Positions 42,823 through 48,209 of a DNA stretch of 55,315 nt are shown here, in pieces (position 1 is the stretch's first letter; every line of letters starts with the position of its first letter). The stretch comes from Bacteroidia bacterium (GTDB lineage: Bacteria; Bacteroidota; Bacteroidia; NS11-12g; UBA955), in assembly GCA_965659745.1 (NCBI GenBank), contig CBFHXF010000008.1, positions 1-55,315 of the forward strand. The letters are read 5' to 3'. Both the position numbers and the translations under genes were made by a program. Under the pieces are notes generated by a model. That model searched no databases and was not told the origin of the DNA. It saw only the letters and a program-made list of their open reading frames with translations.

Positions 42823-43740
42823 TTAAATAGCATCGTTTTTTTGGGTTTGGGAGGTAAAGGTACTTTCGAATATTTTGTCGGCATTGCCGGCTTCAAAACC
42901 TTCGCGGCGTTGTTCGCGTTGTAGGGATTTTGGGTCTAAATTTTGATATTCAGGTAGGGAGCGGCGTTCGGCGAATTCCACATAGCTCCCAGAAATTTCA
43001 TGCGTATCACCACCGGCAAATTCAGCCATAACGGTCTGTGCCACGGTGCTGCTTTGTAGGAGAAGTCCGTCGGGACTTTTTTTAATGATGCCGCCGGCAG
43101 TATTCATTTTCACCTGGATGTGACTGAGAAAGTCGTTGAAGGCTTCTAAGGTATTGAGGGGTTCGGGCATTTCATGCACGCTAATCGTGTAATGATTGAG
43201 GTAATAGCGGTTGTAAATGACCCAAGCGGCATACTCGCTCTCCTGTAGCAAGGCGTGATAATCTTCCCAAGAAGGAAGTTCCCAAAGTGGTTTTTGGAAG
43301 AAGTTTATCACGGTTTGGGCATCATTTAAGTCGAGCGCGGTACTGGGGTCGCTTGTGATATTGTGGGTGTATCGATTCAGGATTTTTTGTGCGTTTTCGG
43401 AGAGTTCATGGGCGCACAATTCGCTGATGAAAATGCGGGGATAATGGGGTTCTGGAGGCGCGTACCAATAGGCCTTGAGTTTTTTCTCCTCAAAGCGATA
43501 ATAATCGCGCTTTTGATATCCGTAGTGCAAGAAAATACGTTCGATGGAGGCAATTCCCAAGTGGGGAAGGCCAAGGGTGCGAAAGGCGATATGATCGTTT
43601 ACGATTTCGGATTGGTCGGAAATTACGCCTTTTTCGATGAGGGCTTGGGTGACTTTTTTAACATCGGGGACTTGGTTGGCATAGGTTTCAAAAAGTCCCT
43701 GTAAAAAATCAGAGAGTGGGCTTTTCTTGTTGAACTTCAT
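42823..43740 (-). CDS. hglS: DUF1338 protein, 2-oxoadipate dioxygenase/decarboxylase (HglS-like)
   Basis: NDHIAFRT, PRIFISEL, ESEYAAW, NHYTISVH, LLQSST, SYVEFAER, GFEAGNADKIFEST. Start ATG 43740. Confidence 0.82.
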   Translation of the reverse strand: MKFNKKSPLSDFLQGLFETYANQVPDVKKVTQALIEKGVISDQSEIVNDHIAFRTLGLPHLGIASIERIFLHYGYQKRDYYRFEEKKLKAYWYAPPEPHYPRIFISELCAHELSENAQKILNRYTHNITSDPSTALDLNDAQTVINFFQKPLWELPSWEDYHALLQESEYAAWVIYNRYYLNHYTISVHEMPEPLNTLEAFNDFLSHIQVKMNTAGGIIKKSPDGLLLQSSTVAQTVMAEFAGGDTHEISGSYVEFAERRSLPEYQNLDPKSLQREQRREGFEAGNADKIFESTFTSQTQKNDAI

Positions 43741-44815
43741 TGAGGCCTTTTGCGTTTTGGAGGTACAGGGATCCGGTTTGGGTTTTGATGAAGGCATCGA
43801 AAGGAATTTCTTCTTGCTTGATGAATCCTTTCTGGGGCAAGGTGCCTTGGGCTACCATTTCTATTACAGCAACGATGGCGCCGGCGGTGGTCCACGAAAT
43901 GGCCCTCCAACGGATGCCGTCAATTTCTATGGGATAAAAGGCGCGGTAGTATTCTTTTCGGGATATTTTGCCTTTCTTCCATCCTTCGACGATGGCGTAA
44001 ACGTATACCACATCGTCTTCTACCGGGGGCTTGGCATTGCTTAAAATACGTTCGAGATTATCGATATCGTTTTTCATGATGAGCTCGTACATCAGGAAGC
44101 GCATAAGTTTACCGTGGCCGGGATAGCGGATGGTTTTATAATTTAGGGTATCGACTTTTCCTTCGAAGGTATCGCACATGGTACCTAAACCACCAGAAGT
44201 GGTAAATGCCTCGAATTCTTGTCCTTCGATATTGATATATTCAAATCCTTCTAGGGAAGGAACATTCTTTTTTACGCCGTTGTGAATGACTTCGGCATCG
44301 TTGAGGTATTCGTTGATTACGCCGTATGAGGACCAATTGAAGGAGTAGGCGAGGAGTCCGTTCGGGAATCGGGGCAGGGCGCCCACGCGCAGTTCAATAT
44401 CGCGCAGGGTTTCAAACTCATGGGTGAGGTGGGCGCCCACGATTCCGATATAGCCGGGTGCCAAGCCACATTGGGGCGCCATTACCGCGTCGGCGGTTTT
44501 GGCCAATTCCATAATATGGGCGGTGGTGGGAACATCTTCGGTTAGGTCGAAGTAGTGGCATTTGTGGCGGTAGGCCATTTCCGCGATCCGCTTATTAAGG
44601 AAATAAGGCAAGCAAGAAACAACGGCGTCGTTTTTTTCAAGCAAGGAGTTCAGCAGTTCGTCGTTTTTCACATCGCCTTTTAATGTGCTAAAAGGCAAGG
44701 GGTAGGGATAGTGGGGATCTTGTTGGTCGAGCCCGGTAACGGTAAAGTTTTTACTGAGCATAACGCCCACAAGGCAGCCCACTTTTCCAAGTCCAATAAC
44801 GAGAATATTTTGCAT
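43709..44815 (-). CDS. Saccharopine dehydrogenase family protein, probable L-lysine 6-dehydrogenase
   Basis: Rossmann IGLGKVG, HYFDLTEDV, PQCGLAPG, RVGALP, NEY, EAFTTSGGLGT, YKTIRYPGH. Start ATG 44815. Confidence 0.82.
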   Translation of the reverse strand: MQNILVIGLGKVGCLVGVMLSKNFTVTGLDQQDPHYPYPLPFSTLKGDVKNDELLNSLLEKNDAVVSCLPYFLNKRIAEMAYRHKCHYFDLTEDVPTTAHIMELAKTADAVMAPQCGLAPGYIGIVGAHLTHEFETLRDIELRVGALPRFPNGLLAYSFNWSSYGVINEYLNDAEVIHNGVKKNVPSLEGFEYINIEGQEFEAFTTSGGLGTMCDTFEGKVDTLNYKTIRYPGHGKLMRFLMYELIMKNDIDNLERILSNAKPPVEDDVVYVYAIVEGWKKGKISRKEYYRAFYPIEIDGIRWRAISWTTAGAIVAVIEMVAQGTLPQKGFIKQEEIPFDAFIKTQTGSLYLQNAKGLNEVQQEKPTL

Positions 44816-44924
44816 CTTTCGCAAGATACAATAAGGGAATCAAAAATGGGAATTTCTTAGGTAGATTTAAAGTAGGCGTAATAATTGCCAATAAAATTCT
44901 CATTTTTGAGTTGATCCTTTAGGG

Positions 44925-45338
44925 TTAATCGTTTTTCTTTTTAGGATTGGCGATTCGCTCGGTAAGGATTTGAATGAGTAAGTTTTGTTGTTCGATCATT
45001 CTTTGAAGGGCATCCATATTCTGATGGATGTCGTGCAGATCTTTAGGGGTTAATGAGTAGTTATTAACGGTACCGTGAGGGGCGGAATTACGCATGTTTT
45101 GAATGTGATAGACCACCCGTTCGTCTAAATGGAGTATGTCGTTTAATTCTACTCCAAAAACACTGGCGAGTTGATTGAGTCTATCTATACTCAAAGTGGT
45201 TTCTCCGCGCTCGATTTTACCGTAGCCGTTGGTAGTGATTCCCAGTTTAGTTGCTACGGATTCTTGCCTTAAACCTTTAATTTCTCTTATTTTACGTAGG
45301 TTTTGAGCAATAGTTTCATTATCTATTGGTTTTTTCAT
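44925..45338 (-). CDS. XRE family HTH transcriptional regulator
   Basis: LRKIREIKGLRQESVATKLGITTNGYGKIERGET HTH; C-terminal coiled-coil-like segment; promoter TATATTTG at 45362-45355. Confidence 0.9.
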   Translation of the reverse strand: MKKPIDNETIAQNLRKIREIKGLRQESVATKLGITTNGYGKIERGETTLSIDRLNQLASVFGVELNDILHLDERVVYHIQNMRNSAPHGTVNNYSLTPKDLHDIHQNMDALQRMIEQQNLLIQILTERIANPKKKND

Positions 45339-45421
45339 GTGACTTAATCAAGGGCAAATATACATATTGAAAGTGTGTAGAAACAAACTGAGAGTTTTTT
45401 AAACCACTTTAAATTTGTAAG

Positions 45422-45796
45422 GTGCAATTGAAATTTCATTCTTTGAGTATCAATAAATTCAAGTATAAGGCTAAAAAAGGCATTACTGATTACGCCCAAT
45501 TGTCTTTGGGTATTATTGATTTCAATTCGCAAACAACAACGGCTAATTGGGAGTTTTCGCTCGATTTAGTGCGCTTTCCTTTAGTATACGATTTAAATGA
45601 AATGGATTTTACCTGGCATTTGGATTTTCAGCCGCTCCAAATTGAAATTGGGATTCAAGAGGGTACTGGCGAGCCTAAAGTTCTTGTGCAGAATCTTACG
45701 CCCCATTTTCTCCAATTGCGTAATGAAAGTCCTTTCTATGCCATTCAATTGCAAAATTCAATTCTTTCTTCAACTATTTGGTGTAAACAATTATAA
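45422..45796 (+). CDS. Hypothetical protein A (paralog of 46772..47176)
   Basis: GTG start 4 nt after TAAATTTG; shares motifs with A'. Confidence 0.65.
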   Translation: MQLKFHSLSINKFKYKAKKGITDYAQLSLGIIDFNSQTTTANWEFSLDLVRFPLVYDLNEMDFTWHLDFQPLQIEIGIQEGTGEPKVLVQNLTPHFLQLRNESPFYAIQLQNSILSSTIWCKQL

Positions 45797-45798
45797 TT

Positions 45799-46155
45799 TT
45801 GAGAAAGCTTATATTCTTCATTCAAACGATTCTAGACAGAAACAATCGTTTTGCTCCCGAACTTTTACAAGGTTTAAATTCGGTTAGTCACTCTCAAGTG
45901 AGATGGTCTCGTCGACTTATGAAAATTTCAGATCGCATGAATTTGGACATCCCTACACAAAAAGAAATTTATGAAGTGGGCACCGTCTATATACATAAGA
46001 AGCAAAAACTCCGGGAAGAGCTTCCGCATTTGCCGGATATATTAGAAAGTGATTTGAAAATTATGCGGATTCAGCGTGATCTTGAATTTCAAAAGATCCT
46101 GACTGAGCGATATCAAGATTTCAAAGCCTTCTACTATAAGTACGGTAAGTACTAG
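45799..46155 (+). CDS. Hypothetical helical protein B (paralog of 46280..46618)
   Basis: TTG start 2 nt after the A stop; 46/97 identities with B' in a manual ungapped alignment. Confidence 0.75.
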   Translation: MRKLIFFIQTILDRNNRFAPELLQGLNSVSHSQVRWSRRLMKISDRMNLDIPTQKEIYEVGTVYIHKKQKLREELPHLPDILESDLKIMRIQRDLEFQKILTERYQDFKAFYYKYGKY

Positions 46156-46279
46156 TACGTTTTATGTTTACCAAGAAAAATGTTCGTTCACGAACTAAAA
46201 ACGTACCGCTGTATGTTTAGATCTTTCTTTGCGTTGTGATCGTTTACTTTACAGACCTTTCACCTTAACTTAAAACAAC

Positions 46280-46618
46280 ATGACTCCTTGGTATAAACGT
46301 ATATTTCAAAAAAATCAGAATCGGTTTGCCGACGAGATACTGATTGCTTTCAATTCAAATACGGGTTATGCTGTGCGATGGGCGAAGAAGTTGATGCGGA
46401 TTTCCGATAAAATGAAATTAGATAAAAACGAACAATTGCAGATATTTCATACAGGCATAGAGTATTATAAAAAGCGCGAAGAACTGAAATTTCAACTGCC
46501 GCATTTACCCGAAATCATGGAGCGCGAAATCAAAATCCTTCAAATACAGCGCGATTTGGTATGGAGAGAAATTTTAGAGTACCGGTTTGAAGACTTTAAG
46601 GAGTGTTACTCAAATTAG
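46280..46618 (+). CDS. Hypothetical helical protein B'
   Basis: ATG after an A-rich tract (TAAAACAAC); clear paralog of B. Confidence 0.8.
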   Translation: MTPWYKRIFQKNQNRFADEILIAFNSNTGYAVRWAKKLMRISDKMKLDKNEQLQIFHTGIEYYKKREELKFQLPHLPEIMEREIKILQIQRDLVWREILEYRFEDFKECYSN

Positions 46619-46676
46619 TGAGTAAAGGCCCCCTCACCAATTAATTGGTTCGTTCATTTGTTTTCGACATTTCAAT

Positions 46677-46752
46677 TTTGATTCTCTCAAGAATTAGATG
46701 TATATTCGATTTAAATAATTGATATTCTTGTAATTGTATTGGTGACAATTAC
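46677..46752 (+). promoter_or_regulatory. Promoter for A' with a downstream 8-bp inverted repeat
   Basis: TTTG (46677-46680), 20 nt, TATATTCG (46701-46708); GTAATTGT-N7-ACAATTAC (46730-46752). Confidence 0.5.
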
Positions 46753-46771
46753 CATTTAGTGATCCAGAAAC

Positions 46772-47176
46772 GTGTTAAAGCCGCATGCCCTCATATTGAA
46801 CCGATTTAACGACCTCGCCTTAGGATTTCAAACCGAAGGACGTGTGGAGTTGTATTGTAGCATGTCGCCGCTGATCAATGCAAATCCTACGGCACACTAC
46901 ATCTTCACGGAACCCATCGTAGAATCGACCTATCAAACGCCGATTTCGTATGATTTGGCTCATTTAAATACCGAAAACTTGGTTCCCGAAGGTCGGTTTT
47001 ACCTGAAATTAGGCATCCAATTCAAATCGGAATTTTACCATGAGATTGAAGGTGTTGTAAACCTTGAAAATCTTCATCATTTAAGTGCATCGGGCTATCG
47101 GAAATTAGAAGTCTCCGATGCCGTAATATCGGCCACCATCCTTTTCAAAGAAGAAATTCCTTCCTTGGGAAATTAA
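46772..47176 (+). CDS. Hypothetical protein A'
   Basis: GTG start; 134 aa; motif similarity to A. Confidence 0.68.
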   Translation: MLKPHALILNRFNDLALGFQTEGRVELYCSMSPLINANPTAHYIFTEPIVESTYQTPISYDLAHLNTENLVPEGRFYLKLGIQFKSEFYHEIEGVVNLENLHHLSASGYRKLEVSDAVISATILFKEEIPSLGN

Positions 47177-47191
47177 CGCACGCCATTGCTC

Positions 47192-48175
47192 TTAATACTG
47201 CGGGTGCTCGGGAGCATTGTCTACAATCGCCTCGATACGCGCCATGATTTCAGGCGTTAGAAGTTTCTCAGTTTCGAGTGCTTTGAGATTCTCGATTAAT
47301 TGTTGCTCTTTGGTGGCGCCCAAAATTACCGTCGATACATTGTCGTTTCTCAAACACCATGCAATGCTCAACAAAGGCAAGGTTGTACCCAATTCTTTCG
47401 CGAGTTCTCCCAAAAGCGCTACCTTTTTGAGGTTCGATTCTTGCAATAAACGCTCGCTCAACCAACCCAATTCTTCTCTTTTCAAGCGGGAATCTTGAGG
47501 AACGCCGTTATTGTATTTTCCGGTGAGTAAACCACTGGCAAGCGGACTCCAAATGGTGGTTCCCAAGCCGACGGTTTTGTACAATTGCGCATATTCCACT
47601 TCGAACTTTTGACGGTGTAACAAATTATATTGAGGCTGTTCCACTACCGGACCTATCAGGTTGTATTGCTTGGCCACCATATGCGCTTCCATGATTTCCT
47701 GTGCGCTCCACTCAGAGGTTCCCCAATACAAAATTTTGCCCTGCATGATCAATTGATGCATGCTCCAAACCGTTTCTTCAATAGGCGTGCTTTTGTCGGG
47801 ACGGTGACAGAAATACAAGTCTAAATAATTGACTTTTAACCGCTCTAAGGCCTGATGGCAGGCTTCAAAAATATGCTTGCGGTGCAATCCTTTTTGGGTG
47901 GGAAATTTGGCTCCCGCACCGAAAAAAACTTTAGATGATACAATATAGGAATCGCGCGACCATGACTTTTTACTTAAAATGTCGCCCATTACGCGCTCCG
48001 ATTCGCCAGCGGCATACACTTCGGCATTGTCAAAGAAATTAACCCCGTAATCGTAGGCAATATCCATCAAACGTTCTGAAATTTGATTGTCAATCTGATT
48101 TCCAAATGTAATCCATGAGCCAAAACTCAAACGGCTGACGGGAAGGCCTGTTTTTCCGAGATTTTTGTATTCCAT
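47192..48175 (-). CDS. Aldo/keto reductase, Kv-beta-like subfamily
   Basis: LGKTGL.VSRLSFGSWITFG, FFDNAEVY, SSKVF, CHRPD, YWGTSEW, EQPQYN, WSPLASGLLTGKY. Confidence 0.92.
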   Translation of the reverse strand: MEYKNLGKTGLPVSRLSFGSWITFGNQIDNQISERLMDIAYDYGVNFFDNAEVYAAGESERVMGDILSKKSWSRDSYIVSSKVFFGAGAKFPTQKGLHRKHIFEACHQALERLKVNYLDLYFCHRPDKSTPIEETVWSMHQLIMQGKILYWGTSEWSAQEIMEAHMVAKQYNLIGPVVEQPQYNLLHRQKFEVEYAQLYKTVGLGTTIWSPLASGLLTGKYNNGVPQDSRLKREELGWLSERLLQESNLKKVALLGELAKELGTTLPLLSIAWCLRNDNVSTVILGATKEQQLIENLKALETEKLLTPEIMARIEAIVDNAPEHPQY

Positions 48176-48209
48176 GTCACGAAATTAGGGGTATTGCGTA
48201 TATTCGGAC
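48176..48209. promoter_or_regulatory. 34-bp divergent promoter region
   Basis: TAATTTCG on the minus strand (48187-48180), 4 nt before the AKR ATG; TATATTCG on the plus strand (48199-48206), 3 nt before the DUF2461 ATG. Confidence 0.55.

What the first reader, a model, noticed from the sequence alone, without database searches (positions are those of the whole stretch)
44925..47176. XRE-linked four-gene module of two unknown paralog pairs in A-B-B'-A' order
Seen: four small unannotated ORFs run divergently from an XRE regulator. B and B' align without gaps at 46/97 identities (NRFAxE, VRW, LMxISDxMxLD, LPHLP, IQRDL, DFK). A and A' are more distant paralogs with colinear motifs: LKFHSLSINKF/LKPHALILNRF, TANWEF/TAHYIF, PLVYDL/PISYDL, IEIGIQ/LKLGIQ, SILSSTI/AVISATI. 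Both A and A' start with GTG. A looks beta-rich and B helical; none has a clear signal peptide. A simple tandem duplication would give A-B-A'-B', so this order implies separate retained duplications. Inference: an undescribed two-family cytoplasmic system, such as cognate A/B pairs or a heteromeric complex, for regulation, stress response or toxin-antitoxin-like activity. Function is unknown.
Basis: partly seen in the sequence, partly recalled or inferred. Interest (0 to 1): 0.75.

Follow-up and report, generated by a model that had tools for sequence, protein, structure and literature searches.

The report
Two orphan gene-pair cassettes, side by side
A small strain-variable insert in an aquatic Bacteroidota genome carries two separable cassettes, each pairing an acidic beta-sandwich protein with a basic helical protein from families found almost only in this genus; their function is still unknown.

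Summary
The ORFs are real and lie as described. B/B' are clear paralogs (46/97 identities, no gaps). A/A' are probable but only borderline-significant paralogs. None of the four matches Pfam, NCBIfam, PHROGs or PADLOC, and both families are tiny and nearly confined to one genus.

New findings:
1. The 2.3 kb block is a low-GC insertion between an aldo-keto reductase gene and a saccharopine-dehydrogenase-like gene. These two genes abut directly in 4 of 6 congener loci inspected.
2. Metagenome contigs from two studies carry a form that lacks exactly 44857-46164 (XRE-A-B) but keeps B'-A'. The A-B-B'-A' order therefore most simply reflects two separable cassettes. The XRE belongs only to the first.
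3. A third allele, in genome G016, is a deletion remnant.
4. The A' model is an 8-strand beta-sandwich that most resembles C2 domains. B is a helical bundle.
5. B/B' are accessory paralogs of a genus-core gene next to miaB.
6. All A-types are acidic and all B-types basic.

Best guess (about 40%): cognate acidic/basic binding pairs with toxin-antitoxin-like or immunity-like logic, with the first pair under XRE control. Function is untested. Interest is moderate.

The parts
44857..46164 (.). Cassette 1 (1308 bp): XRE plus the divergent A-B pair; GC 36.2%
   Evidence: Contigs in runs X1 and X2 skip exactly this stretch, with 4 other letters at the joint. GC.
46165..47191 (.). Cassette 2 (about 1027 bp): B' then A'; GC 38.5%. 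It occurs on its own in natural populations.
   Evidence: X2 record 13 (1077 nt, 20 differences) covers 46165-47191 joined to the flank on the saccharopine-dehydrogenase side. GC.
44925..45338 (-). XRE-family regulator, 137 aa: N-terminal HTH plus a C-terminal extension
   Evidence: Pfam HTH_3 E 1.1e-13. It is the only copy of this family in the genome at E <= 1e-5, and orthologs at 48-57% identity occur in 9 congeners.
45339..45421 (.). Divergent intergenic region with two oppositely oriented -7-like boxes (45355-45362 minus strand, 45410-45417 plus strand); presumed promoters and operator
   Evidence: Pattern hits. The motif is not enriched in the window overall (57 found, 59.9 expected), so this is only suggestive. 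The consensus is recalled, not taken from a call.
45422..45796 (+). A: acidic protein (pI 5.84) of 124 aa, or 122 aa from the TTG at 45428
   Evidence: Relatives are P0006 (89% identity) and P0013 (65%).
45799..46155 (+). B: basic (pI 9.69) all-helical protein of 118 aa; its start lies 2 nt after the stop of A
   Evidence: Four relatives among 5.8 billion proteins.
46280..46618 (+). B': basic (pI 9.18) paralog of B, 112 aa
46772..47176 (+). A': acidic (pI 5.25) protein of 134 aa; 8-strand beta-sandwich model that resembles C2 domains
44840..44909 (-). Strong hairpin downstream of the XRE gene; the left junction of cassette 1 (44856/44857) falls between its two arms
   Evidence: Inverted repeat I2, 16 nt, 94% complementary. 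Fold -14.2 kcal/mol, z -4.46, 0 of 200 shuffles as good.
46155..46206 (+). Inverted repeat spanning the right junction of cassette 1 (46164/46165)
   Evidence: I23, 14 nt, 86% complementary. The fold is not significant: z -1.44, 17 of 200 shuffles as good.
46170..46190 (+). 21-nt element upstream of B'; a 76% identical copy lies at 46636-46656, upstream of A'
   Evidence: Direct repeat D3. This is a two-copy family and could be chance.

Best explanation
The region is a strain-variable accessory islet of about 2.3 kb with low GC. It is inserted between two housekeeping genes of a small-genome aquatic Bacteroidota bacterium.

It consists of two separable cassettes:
- Cassette 1: an XRE repressor transcribed divergently from A then B.
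- Cassette 2: B' then A'.

Each cassette encodes one acidic, all-beta protein (A-type) and one basic, all-helical protein (B-type). The modelled A-type member, A', resembles a C2 domain. The B-type genes are accessory paralogs of a helical-protein gene that is core to this genus.

Proposed mechanism (inferred, not shown): in each cassette the acidic A-type protein binds and holds in check its cognate basic B-type protein. This is toxin-antitoxin-like or immunity-like logic, and the target of the B-type protein may be a nucleic acid. The XRE represses the A-B operon from the shared 83-bp intergenic region.

Shown: the gene anatomy, the paralogy of B/B'/core-B, the separability of the cassettes, the presence/absence polymorphism, the fold classes and the charge pattern.
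Inferred: A-B binding, any toxicity, and XRE control.
For: Insertion:
- The aldo-keto reductase and saccharopine-dehydrogenase-like genes abut (gaps of 35-159 nt) in G018, G020, G009 and G007. That is 4 of the 6 reductase loci inspected, out of 22 non-self loci fetched.
- GC is 36.2% and 38.5% in the cassettes against 42.6% for the window.

Two cassettes:
- The joint 44856->46165 is seen in X1 (side 30) and X2 (side 46), which come from two studies.
- An empty-site joint 44840->47192 is seen in X2.

A third allele: G016 has the reductase gene, an A'-type gene, the last 48 aa of a B-type gene butted against the last 36 aa of the XRE, then the dehydrogenase-like gene.

Pairing: A-type and B-type genes are adjacent in all three arrangements. 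The stop of A and the start of B are 2 nt apart.

Charge: 6 of 6 A-types have pI 5.0-5.8 and 3 of 3 B-types computed have pI 9.2-9.8.

Real proteins:
- Relatives down to 32% identity (A' type) and 58% identity (B type) align over most of their length.
- The models are confident (pTM 0.78 and 0.79).

XRE:
- It is the only copy of its family in this genome.
- In the 6 of 9 ortholog loci inspected, the orthologs sit beside different small cargo genes.
- It also hits PADLOC control-protein models (E 8e-12).
Against: - No toxin, antitoxin, immunity or defence family matches A, B, B' or A'.
- Cassette 2 has no regulator of its own, a 153-nt gap between its genes, and no -7-like box upstream of either gene.
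- The core B-like gene exists in 15 of 16 congeners without an A-type neighbour in the loci read, so B-type proteins need not be harmful or need a partner.
- C2-like sandwiches are generally binding modules, and nothing marks them as neutralisers (recalled knowledge).
- A/A' homology is only borderline by sequence.
- The G016 remnant suggests the genes are dispensable.
- All evidence of co-occurrence comes from one genus, so it is not independent.
Confidence: 0.4

Rival explanations
1. The four genes are independent lineage-specific orphan genes with no A-B interaction. They sit in a hypervariable islet that is swapped between strains by homologous recombination in the conserved flanks. Each product acts alone, in an unknown niche or phage-related role.
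For: The families are tiny and confined to one genus. Empty, half and full alleles coexist. The core B-like gene stands alone. B' and A' are 153 nt apart.
Against: A-type and B-type genes are neighbours in three different arrangements. A and B are 2 nt apart. The opposite charges are consistent across all members computed.
Confidence: 0.25
2. The A-type proteins are free-standing C2-like modules that bind membrane or lipid. They recruit or regulate the helical B-type partner at the inner membrane, as an envelope or stress accessory module.
For: The A' model aligns over its whole length to C2 domains: Z 8.1 (rmsd 3.2, 111 residues) for PTEN and Z 8.0 (rmsd 3.9, 118 residues) for cPLA2. 28 of the 50 rows name a C2 domain in their title. 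The top Foldseek rows are also C2 domains.
Against: Z of about 8 is the typical best score for models with no true match, according to the tool's own note. No Foldseek hit has E <= 0.001. There is no Pfam C2 match. No acidic residues are conserved across both A and A' (the invariant columns are P, Y, I, L, S). A-types are net acidic, which does not favour binding to anionic lipid.
Confidence: 0.12
3. The islet is decaying, functionless DNA left by an old insertion, and the ORFs are kept only by chance or recent arrival.
For: G016 carries a deletion remnant. Forms without the islet exist. No RNA-holding run was available to show expression.
Against: Intact ORFs persist across relatives down to 32-65% identity, aligned over most of their length. 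The AlphaFold2 models are confident. B-type genes share conserved motifs with a core gene (hhalign probability 97%).
Confidence: 0.1

Closest known systems
Type II toxin-antitoxin modules with an XRE/HTH component
   Same: Small adjacent genes (A and B are 2 nt apart), one acidic and one basic product, an XRE-type HTH regulator at the locus, an accessory and patchy distribution, and presence/absence alleles.
   Different: The XRE is divergent and sits outside the pair, and is not fused to either partner. Neither partner matches any toxin or antitoxin family. Gene order differs between the two cassettes. The second pair has no regulator and a 153-nt gap. Toxicity is untested.
C2 domain superfamily (eukaryotic membrane-targeting beta-sandwich)
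   Same: The A' model is an 8-strand beta-sandwich of about 130 aa that aligns end to end with many C2 domains (Z 6-8.1).
   Different: It is a free-standing bacterial protein with no sequence match to Pfam C2 and no conserved acidic loop cluster. The scores lie in the range the tool calls common for unrelated sandwiches.
Genus-core B-like gene next to miaB (own genome, contig C14, 10167-10595, minus strand)
   Same: B and B' share its helical architecture and the conserved P-H-L-P loop motif. hhalign probability is 97%, E 6.6e-11 over 88 columns. The core profile finds B at E 4.7e-11 and B' at 1.7e-8 among 14,586 ORFs.
   Different: The core gene is single-copy, sits in a fixed housekeeping context, is longer (129-142 aa) and has no A-type neighbour in the loci read. 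It too has no Pfam or NCBIfam family.
Flexible genomic islets of aquatic bacteria (strain-variable cargo between conserved core genes; recalled concept)
   Same: A short low-GC insert at a fixed site between core genes, with several alleles coexisting in the same samples.
   Different: It is unusually small and is built from two related gene pairs. No recombinase or mobility gene was seen among the five flanking genes scanned.

Membership tests
XRE / HTH_3 transcriptional regulators (gene at 44925-45338) | Cro/C1-type helix-turn-helix domain scoring above the Pfam gathering score | tested here: met
   PF01381 E 1.1e-13, 51.4 bits against a cutoff of 23, residues 13-66.
C2 domain superfamily (A') | Eight-stranded antiparallel beta-sandwich that superposes on solved C2 domains | tested here: inconclusive
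   The model has 8 strands. VIA-align gives Z 8.1/8.0, rmsd 3.2/3.9, 111/118 residues aligned, and 28 of 50 rows name C2. The best Foldseek E is 5.5e-3, and Z of about 8 is within the tool's stated background.
C2 domain superfamily (A, A') | Sequence match to the Pfam C2 model | tested here: not met
   No C2 hit at E <= 1 for A or A'. No PDB sequence hit at E <= 1 with the family profile.
C2 domain superfamily (A, A') | Conserved acidic calcium-binding loop residues (present only in calcium-dependent C2 domains; recalled) | tested here: not met
   Columns invariant across A- and A'-types are P57, Y60, I82, L101 and S120 only. E87, H90, E113 and D116 are conserved within the A'-type only.
Type II toxin-antitoxin systems | Two small adjacent co-oriented genes with minimal spacing | tested here: met
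   The stop of A is at 45794-45796 and the start of B at 45799. This does not hold for B'-A', which have a 153-nt gap.
Type II toxin-antitoxin systems | Either partner belongs to a recognised toxin or antitoxin family | tested here: not met
   No significant hit in Pfam, NCBIfam or PADLOC. The best is MqsA_antitoxin for B' at E 0.013, 16 bits against a cutoff of 30.
Type II toxin-antitoxin systems | The toxin arrests growth and the cognate antitoxin rescues it by direct binding | not testable with these tools
   This needs expression experiments.
Known anti-phage defence systems (PADLOC-DB 2.0) | Match of the effector or sensor proteins to a defence-system model | tested here: not met
   Only the XRE matches (control protein E 8e-12, capH E 3.5e-8). 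A, B and A' have 0 families, and B' has one hit at E 0.024.
Phage or plasmid cargo | Relatives encoded on viral contigs, phage genomes or plasmids | tested here: not met
   No confirmed relative in viral contigs with the B or A' profiles. B was not found in 50,697 phage records. A' was not found in 72,556 plasmid records. B against plasmids and A' against phage records were not run.

The most novel reading that the evidence does not exclude
Free-standing bacterial C2-like beta-sandwich proteins form specific acid-base pairs with helical proteins that were recruited by duplication of a lineage-specific core gene. This would be a previously undescribed class of two-gene cassette (toxin-immunity-like or defence-like) that is shuffled in and out of a fixed chromosomal slot without any recombinase of its own. 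It would be a tractable natural example of a new accessory system arising from a young core gene.
Probability: 0.15. Interest if true: 0.6.

Novelty: new variant of a known kind. Interest (0 to 1): 0.4.

Why it matters
If the pairing is functional, this would be a compact two-protein system built from two undescribed families. One family has a fold that is rare as a stand-alone protein in bacteria. The other is visibly derived from a young, genus-restricted core gene. Empty, half and full alleles coexist in natural populations, which makes gain, loss and selection directly observable. If the pairing is not functional, the region is an ordinary example of orphan genes in a flexible islet of an uncultured aquatic bacterium.

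Tried and rejected
- Complex prediction of A with B: the verdict was 'no answer' (score 0.00, no controls run), so it says nothing either way.
- ESM Atlas: no usable hit for A'. For B only unnamed Bacteroidota clusters at 0.76-0.78, which is below the useful range.
- B fold search: Foldseek E of about 1. The best VIA-align Z was 7.5, to a four-helix-bundle protein of an archaeal virus, below the noise level for helical proteins.
- A' against BFVD viral structures: no hit at E <= 0.001.
- The search for related loci with B profiles, P0002 or the A' profile found no confirmed relative in genome contigs or metagenome contigs. The tool may leave out records of the window's own lineage.
- PDB sequence search with the A-family and core-B profiles: nothing, or one hit at E 0.78.
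- Rfam on 44700-47300: 0 matches at E <= 1.
- No extra ORF of 40 aa or more in the gaps between B, B' and A' (46156-46279 and 46619-46771).
- P0016 (1610 aa) and P0017 (279 aa) from the HMMER search are tandem-repeat proteins, rejected as repeat-inflated hits.
- The weak A hits inside ORFs of 1319-1537 aa and the A' hit with 3 stops in G065 were not followed up and are treated as chance.
- No target-site duplication could be defined, because the intergenic DNA at empty sites is too diverged.
- Sequencing runs: no RNA holder is listed. X5 is only guessed to be RNA, and one loose end looks like library adapter (recalled).
- Contig depths were not used to rank alleles.
- Sigma-70 promoter scan: 3 sites against 7.4 expected.
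- The literature searches gave listings only, with nothing on free-standing bacterial C2-like proteins of this kind. No paper was read.
- Earlier scan notes: nothing.
Full report
**1. Anatomy**

- XRE, 44925-45338 (-)
- A, 45422-45796 (+, GTG)
- B, 45799-46155 (+, TTG; 2 nt after the stop of A)
- B', 46280-46618 (+, ATG)
- A', 46772-47176 (+, GTG)

A public gene call starts A at the TTG at 45428 (P0005, 122 aa).

The flanking genes are housekeeping (Pfam):
- a saccharopine-dehydrogenase-like gene at 43709-44824 (-)
- an aldo-keto reductase gene at 47192-48175 (-)
- further out, an HGLS-family gene, a DUF2461 gene, and a 923-aa protein with a type IX secretion sorting tail

That tail is my basis for calling the organism Bacteroidota. 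The genome is a 2.29 Mb assembly in 146 contigs, 94% complete.

**2. Paralogy**

B and B' share 46/97 identities with no gaps (E 6e-33). None of 500 shuffles reached that score.

A and A' are much weaker:

| Test | Result |
|---|---|
| BLASTP, single comparison | E 0.001 |
| Shuffle test | 2 of 2000 reach the score |
| hhalign, first profiles | E 1.8e-4, probability 48% |
| hhalign, after adding P0013-P0015 | E 2.6e-5, probability 75%, 117 colinear columns |
| A'-only HMM against all 14,586 genome ORFs of 50 aa or more | A is the best non-self hit, but at E 0.074 |
| A-only HMM (3 sequences), same ORF set | does not find A' at E <= 10 |

The top-ranked ORF of the whole genome is the neighbour 1 kb away. 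It has the same size and the same charge class, and it also sits next to a B paralog. I therefore accept A/A' homology as probable (about 80%), but it is not proven by sequence.

**3. Family size and annotation**

A, B, B' and A' have no significant hit in Pfam, PADLOC, NCBIfam or PHROGs.

The word-indexed search of 5.8 billion proteins found:
- 4 relatives of B
- 2 of A, one of them the window's own product
- 5 of A'

A full HMMER pass over 1.84 billion representatives with the joint A/A' profile found 7 proteins at E <= 0.001. Five are genuine (P0007, P0012-P0015) and two are tandem-repeat artefacts.

In genomes:
- B-type genes proper were found only in G000 and, as a fragment, in G016. 61 related genomes were searched.
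- A' found G016 and one stop-ridden hit in G065 among 101 family genomes.
- A found only weak hits (E >= 0.0017), three of them inside very long ORFs.
- No confirmed relative appeared in the species-genome, metagenome or viral contig collections.
- B was not found in phage records, and A' was not found in plasmids.

**4. The block is an insertion**

In the relatives with the most similar reductase gene (G018 94%, G020 92%, G009 87%, G007 82%), that gene is followed directly by the saccharopine-dehydrogenase-like gene, with gaps of 35-159 nt. I inspected 6 of the 22 non-self loci fetched. The other two inspected (G012, G022) have different neighbours.

GC is 36.2% and 38.5% in the two halves of the block. 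It is 42.6% for the window and 44.6-48.3% for the flanking genes.

**5. Two cassettes, not one module**

I laid Logan contigs of four runs on 43700-48200. This gave two informative joints.

(a) 44840 joined to 47192 with 26 other letters between, in X2. This is an empty-site form. The shorter side is only 20 letters, so on its own it is weak, but it agrees with the empty sites seen in genomes.

(b) 44856 joined to 46165 with the same 4 letters between, in X1 (side 30) and X2 (side 46). These runs come from two studies. In X2 a 1077-nt contig continues across 46165-47191 with 20 differences.

Form (b) lacks exactly the XRE, A and B (1308 bp, ending 9 nt after the stop of B) and keeps B'-A'. The A-B-B'-A' order is therefore best read as two neighbouring cassettes, [XRE / A-B] and [B'-A']. 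Each cassette has one A-type and one B-type gene, in opposite order.

Whether the short form is ancestral or a clean deletion cannot be told.

A further allele is in G016. It reads: reductase gene, an A'-type gene (P0012, 128 aa, 24% identical to A', E 5e-10 pairwise), then the last 48 residues of a B-type gene (63% identical to B) butted against the last 36 residues of the XRE (61% identical), then the dehydrogenase-like gene. This is a deletion remnant, and it shows a B-type gene directly followed by an A'-type gene.

**6. Structure**

AlphaFold2 on the small family alignments gave two models:
- A': 8 strands, pLDDT 80.4, pTM 0.78
- B: six helices, pLDDT 87.9, pTM 0.79

The A' alignment included A-type rows, so this model is not independent evidence that A and A' share a fold.

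VIA-align against 48,161 chains aligned the whole A' model to C2 domains:
- PTEN: Z 8.1, rmsd 3.2, 111 residues
- cPLA2: Z 8.0, rmsd 3.9, 118 residues
- 28 of the 50 rows name a C2 domain in their title, and most of the others are proteins that I recall as containing one

The top Foldseek rows are also C2 domains, but the best E is 5.5e-3. The tool's own note says a Z of 7-8 is typical for models without a true match. 'C2-like sandwich' is therefore a consistent description of the fold, not a demonstrated family membership.

No acidic cluster is conserved across both A and A'. B has no informative structural match.

**7. B-type genes derive from a lineage-specific core gene**

The weak hits of B in congeners are a protein of 129-142 aa. 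In the two loci whose ORFs were listed in full (own genome and G021) its gene lies between miaB and an epimerase-like gene.

- Profile-profile comparison of B/B' and relatives against this family gives probability 97%, E 6.6e-11 over 88 columns.
- The core profile finds B (E 4.7e-11) and B' (E 1.7e-8) among all genome ORFs.
- The core family was found in 15 of 16 congeners, 1 of 11 and 2 of 4 genomes of two sister genera, and 0 of 66 genomes of the neighbouring family. In all, 151 genomes were searched.
- It has no Pfam or NCBIfam model.
- No A-type gene lies beside it in the loci read.

**8. The XRE**

G000 has a single gene of this XRE family. Orthologs at 48-57% identity occur in 9 congeners. 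They share the HTH, a conserved central motif and a C-terminal helical tail.

In the 6 loci I read, they sit beside unrelated small cargo genes: exported or lipoprotein-like proteins, outer-membrane-protein-like genes, and in G012 an integrase-like gene. None sits beside A- or B-type genes. The XRE therefore looks like a regulator that travels with variable cargo.

The 83-bp divergent region holds one -7-like box for each direction. The consensus is recalled, and the motif is not enriched in the window. No such box precedes B' or A'.

**9. Physico-chemistry**

- All six A-types computed are acidic (pI 5.01-5.84).
- The three B-types computed are basic (pI 9.18-9.79).
- None of the four window proteins has a hydrophobic segment.

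**10. Interpretation**

Shown:
- an accessory, polymorphic islet made of two separable A-type/B-type cassettes
- B-types are paralogs of a young core gene
- A' is a C2-like sandwich in the model

Inferred: each acidic A-type protein binds its basic B-type neighbour (toxin-antitoxin-like or immunity-like logic), and the XRE represses the A-B operon.

The complex prediction gave no verdict and is not used. No expression data were available.

The main rival is that these are simply unrelated-in-function orphan genes in a flexible islet.

**11. Novelty and score**

The two families are undescribed in the four libraries searched. My two literature searches returned nothing relevant, but I saw listings only and read no paper.

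The kind of thing is familiar: a small XRE-associated accessory cassette in a variable chromosomal slot. What is unusual:
- the stand-alone C2-like fold
- the derivation of one partner from a genus-core gene
- the coexisting empty, half and full alleles

The families are restricted to one genus of uncultured aquatic bacteria, and their function is unknown. Interest is moderate (0.4).

Noticed in passing
Own genome, contig C14, 10167-10595 (-); locus L003 1468-1896 (-): A conserved basic helical protein of 129-142 aa with no Pfam or NCBIfam family. In the two loci listed in full its gene lies between miaB and an epimerase-like gene. It is present in 15 of 16 congeners searched and is the parent family of B/B'. 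It has highly basic C-terminal tails, and its function is unknown.
   Followed up: partly
L029 (G004), L030 (G012), L033 (G014), L036 (G006), L037 (G017), L035 (G021): Orthologs of the XRE (48-57% identity) sit beside different small cargo genes in each genome. In G012 one lies next to an integrase-like gene of 397 aa (L030 2180-3373). This suggests a family of regulators that travel with variable cassettes.
   Followed up: partly
window 44840-44909: A strong hairpin (z -4.46). Its left arm lies outside cassette 1 and its right arm inside it, so the cassette junction falls between the arms. A weaker inverted repeat (46155-46206) spans the other junction. This may be relevant to how the cassette is gained or lost.
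   Followed up: partly
window 46636-46649: A perfect 14-nt palindrome just downstream of the B' stop. It overlaps the second copy of the 21-nt repeat (46636-46656). It could be an operator or terminator element. I read it by eye.
   Followed up: no
P0004 (155 aa; found, sequence): The most divergent B-type relative has an N-terminal extension of 37 residues. Its first part faintly resembles the C-terminus of A-type proteins. This hints at an upstream A-type gene in frame, or at an over-extended gene call. Its contig could not be read.
   Followed up: no
window 42823-44824: An HGLS-family gene (2-oxoadipate dioxygenase/decarboxylase) and a saccharopine-dehydrogenase-like gene lie head to tail with overlapping ORFs. 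They look like a lysine-catabolism pair, and the same pair is seen in G018 and G020.
   Followed up: no
G065 contig C1, 1239401-1239592 (-), locus L023: A weak A'-like match (30% identity over residues 4-69, E 4.5e-5) containing three stop codons, in a sister genus. It is either a pseudogene remnant or chance.
   Followed up: no
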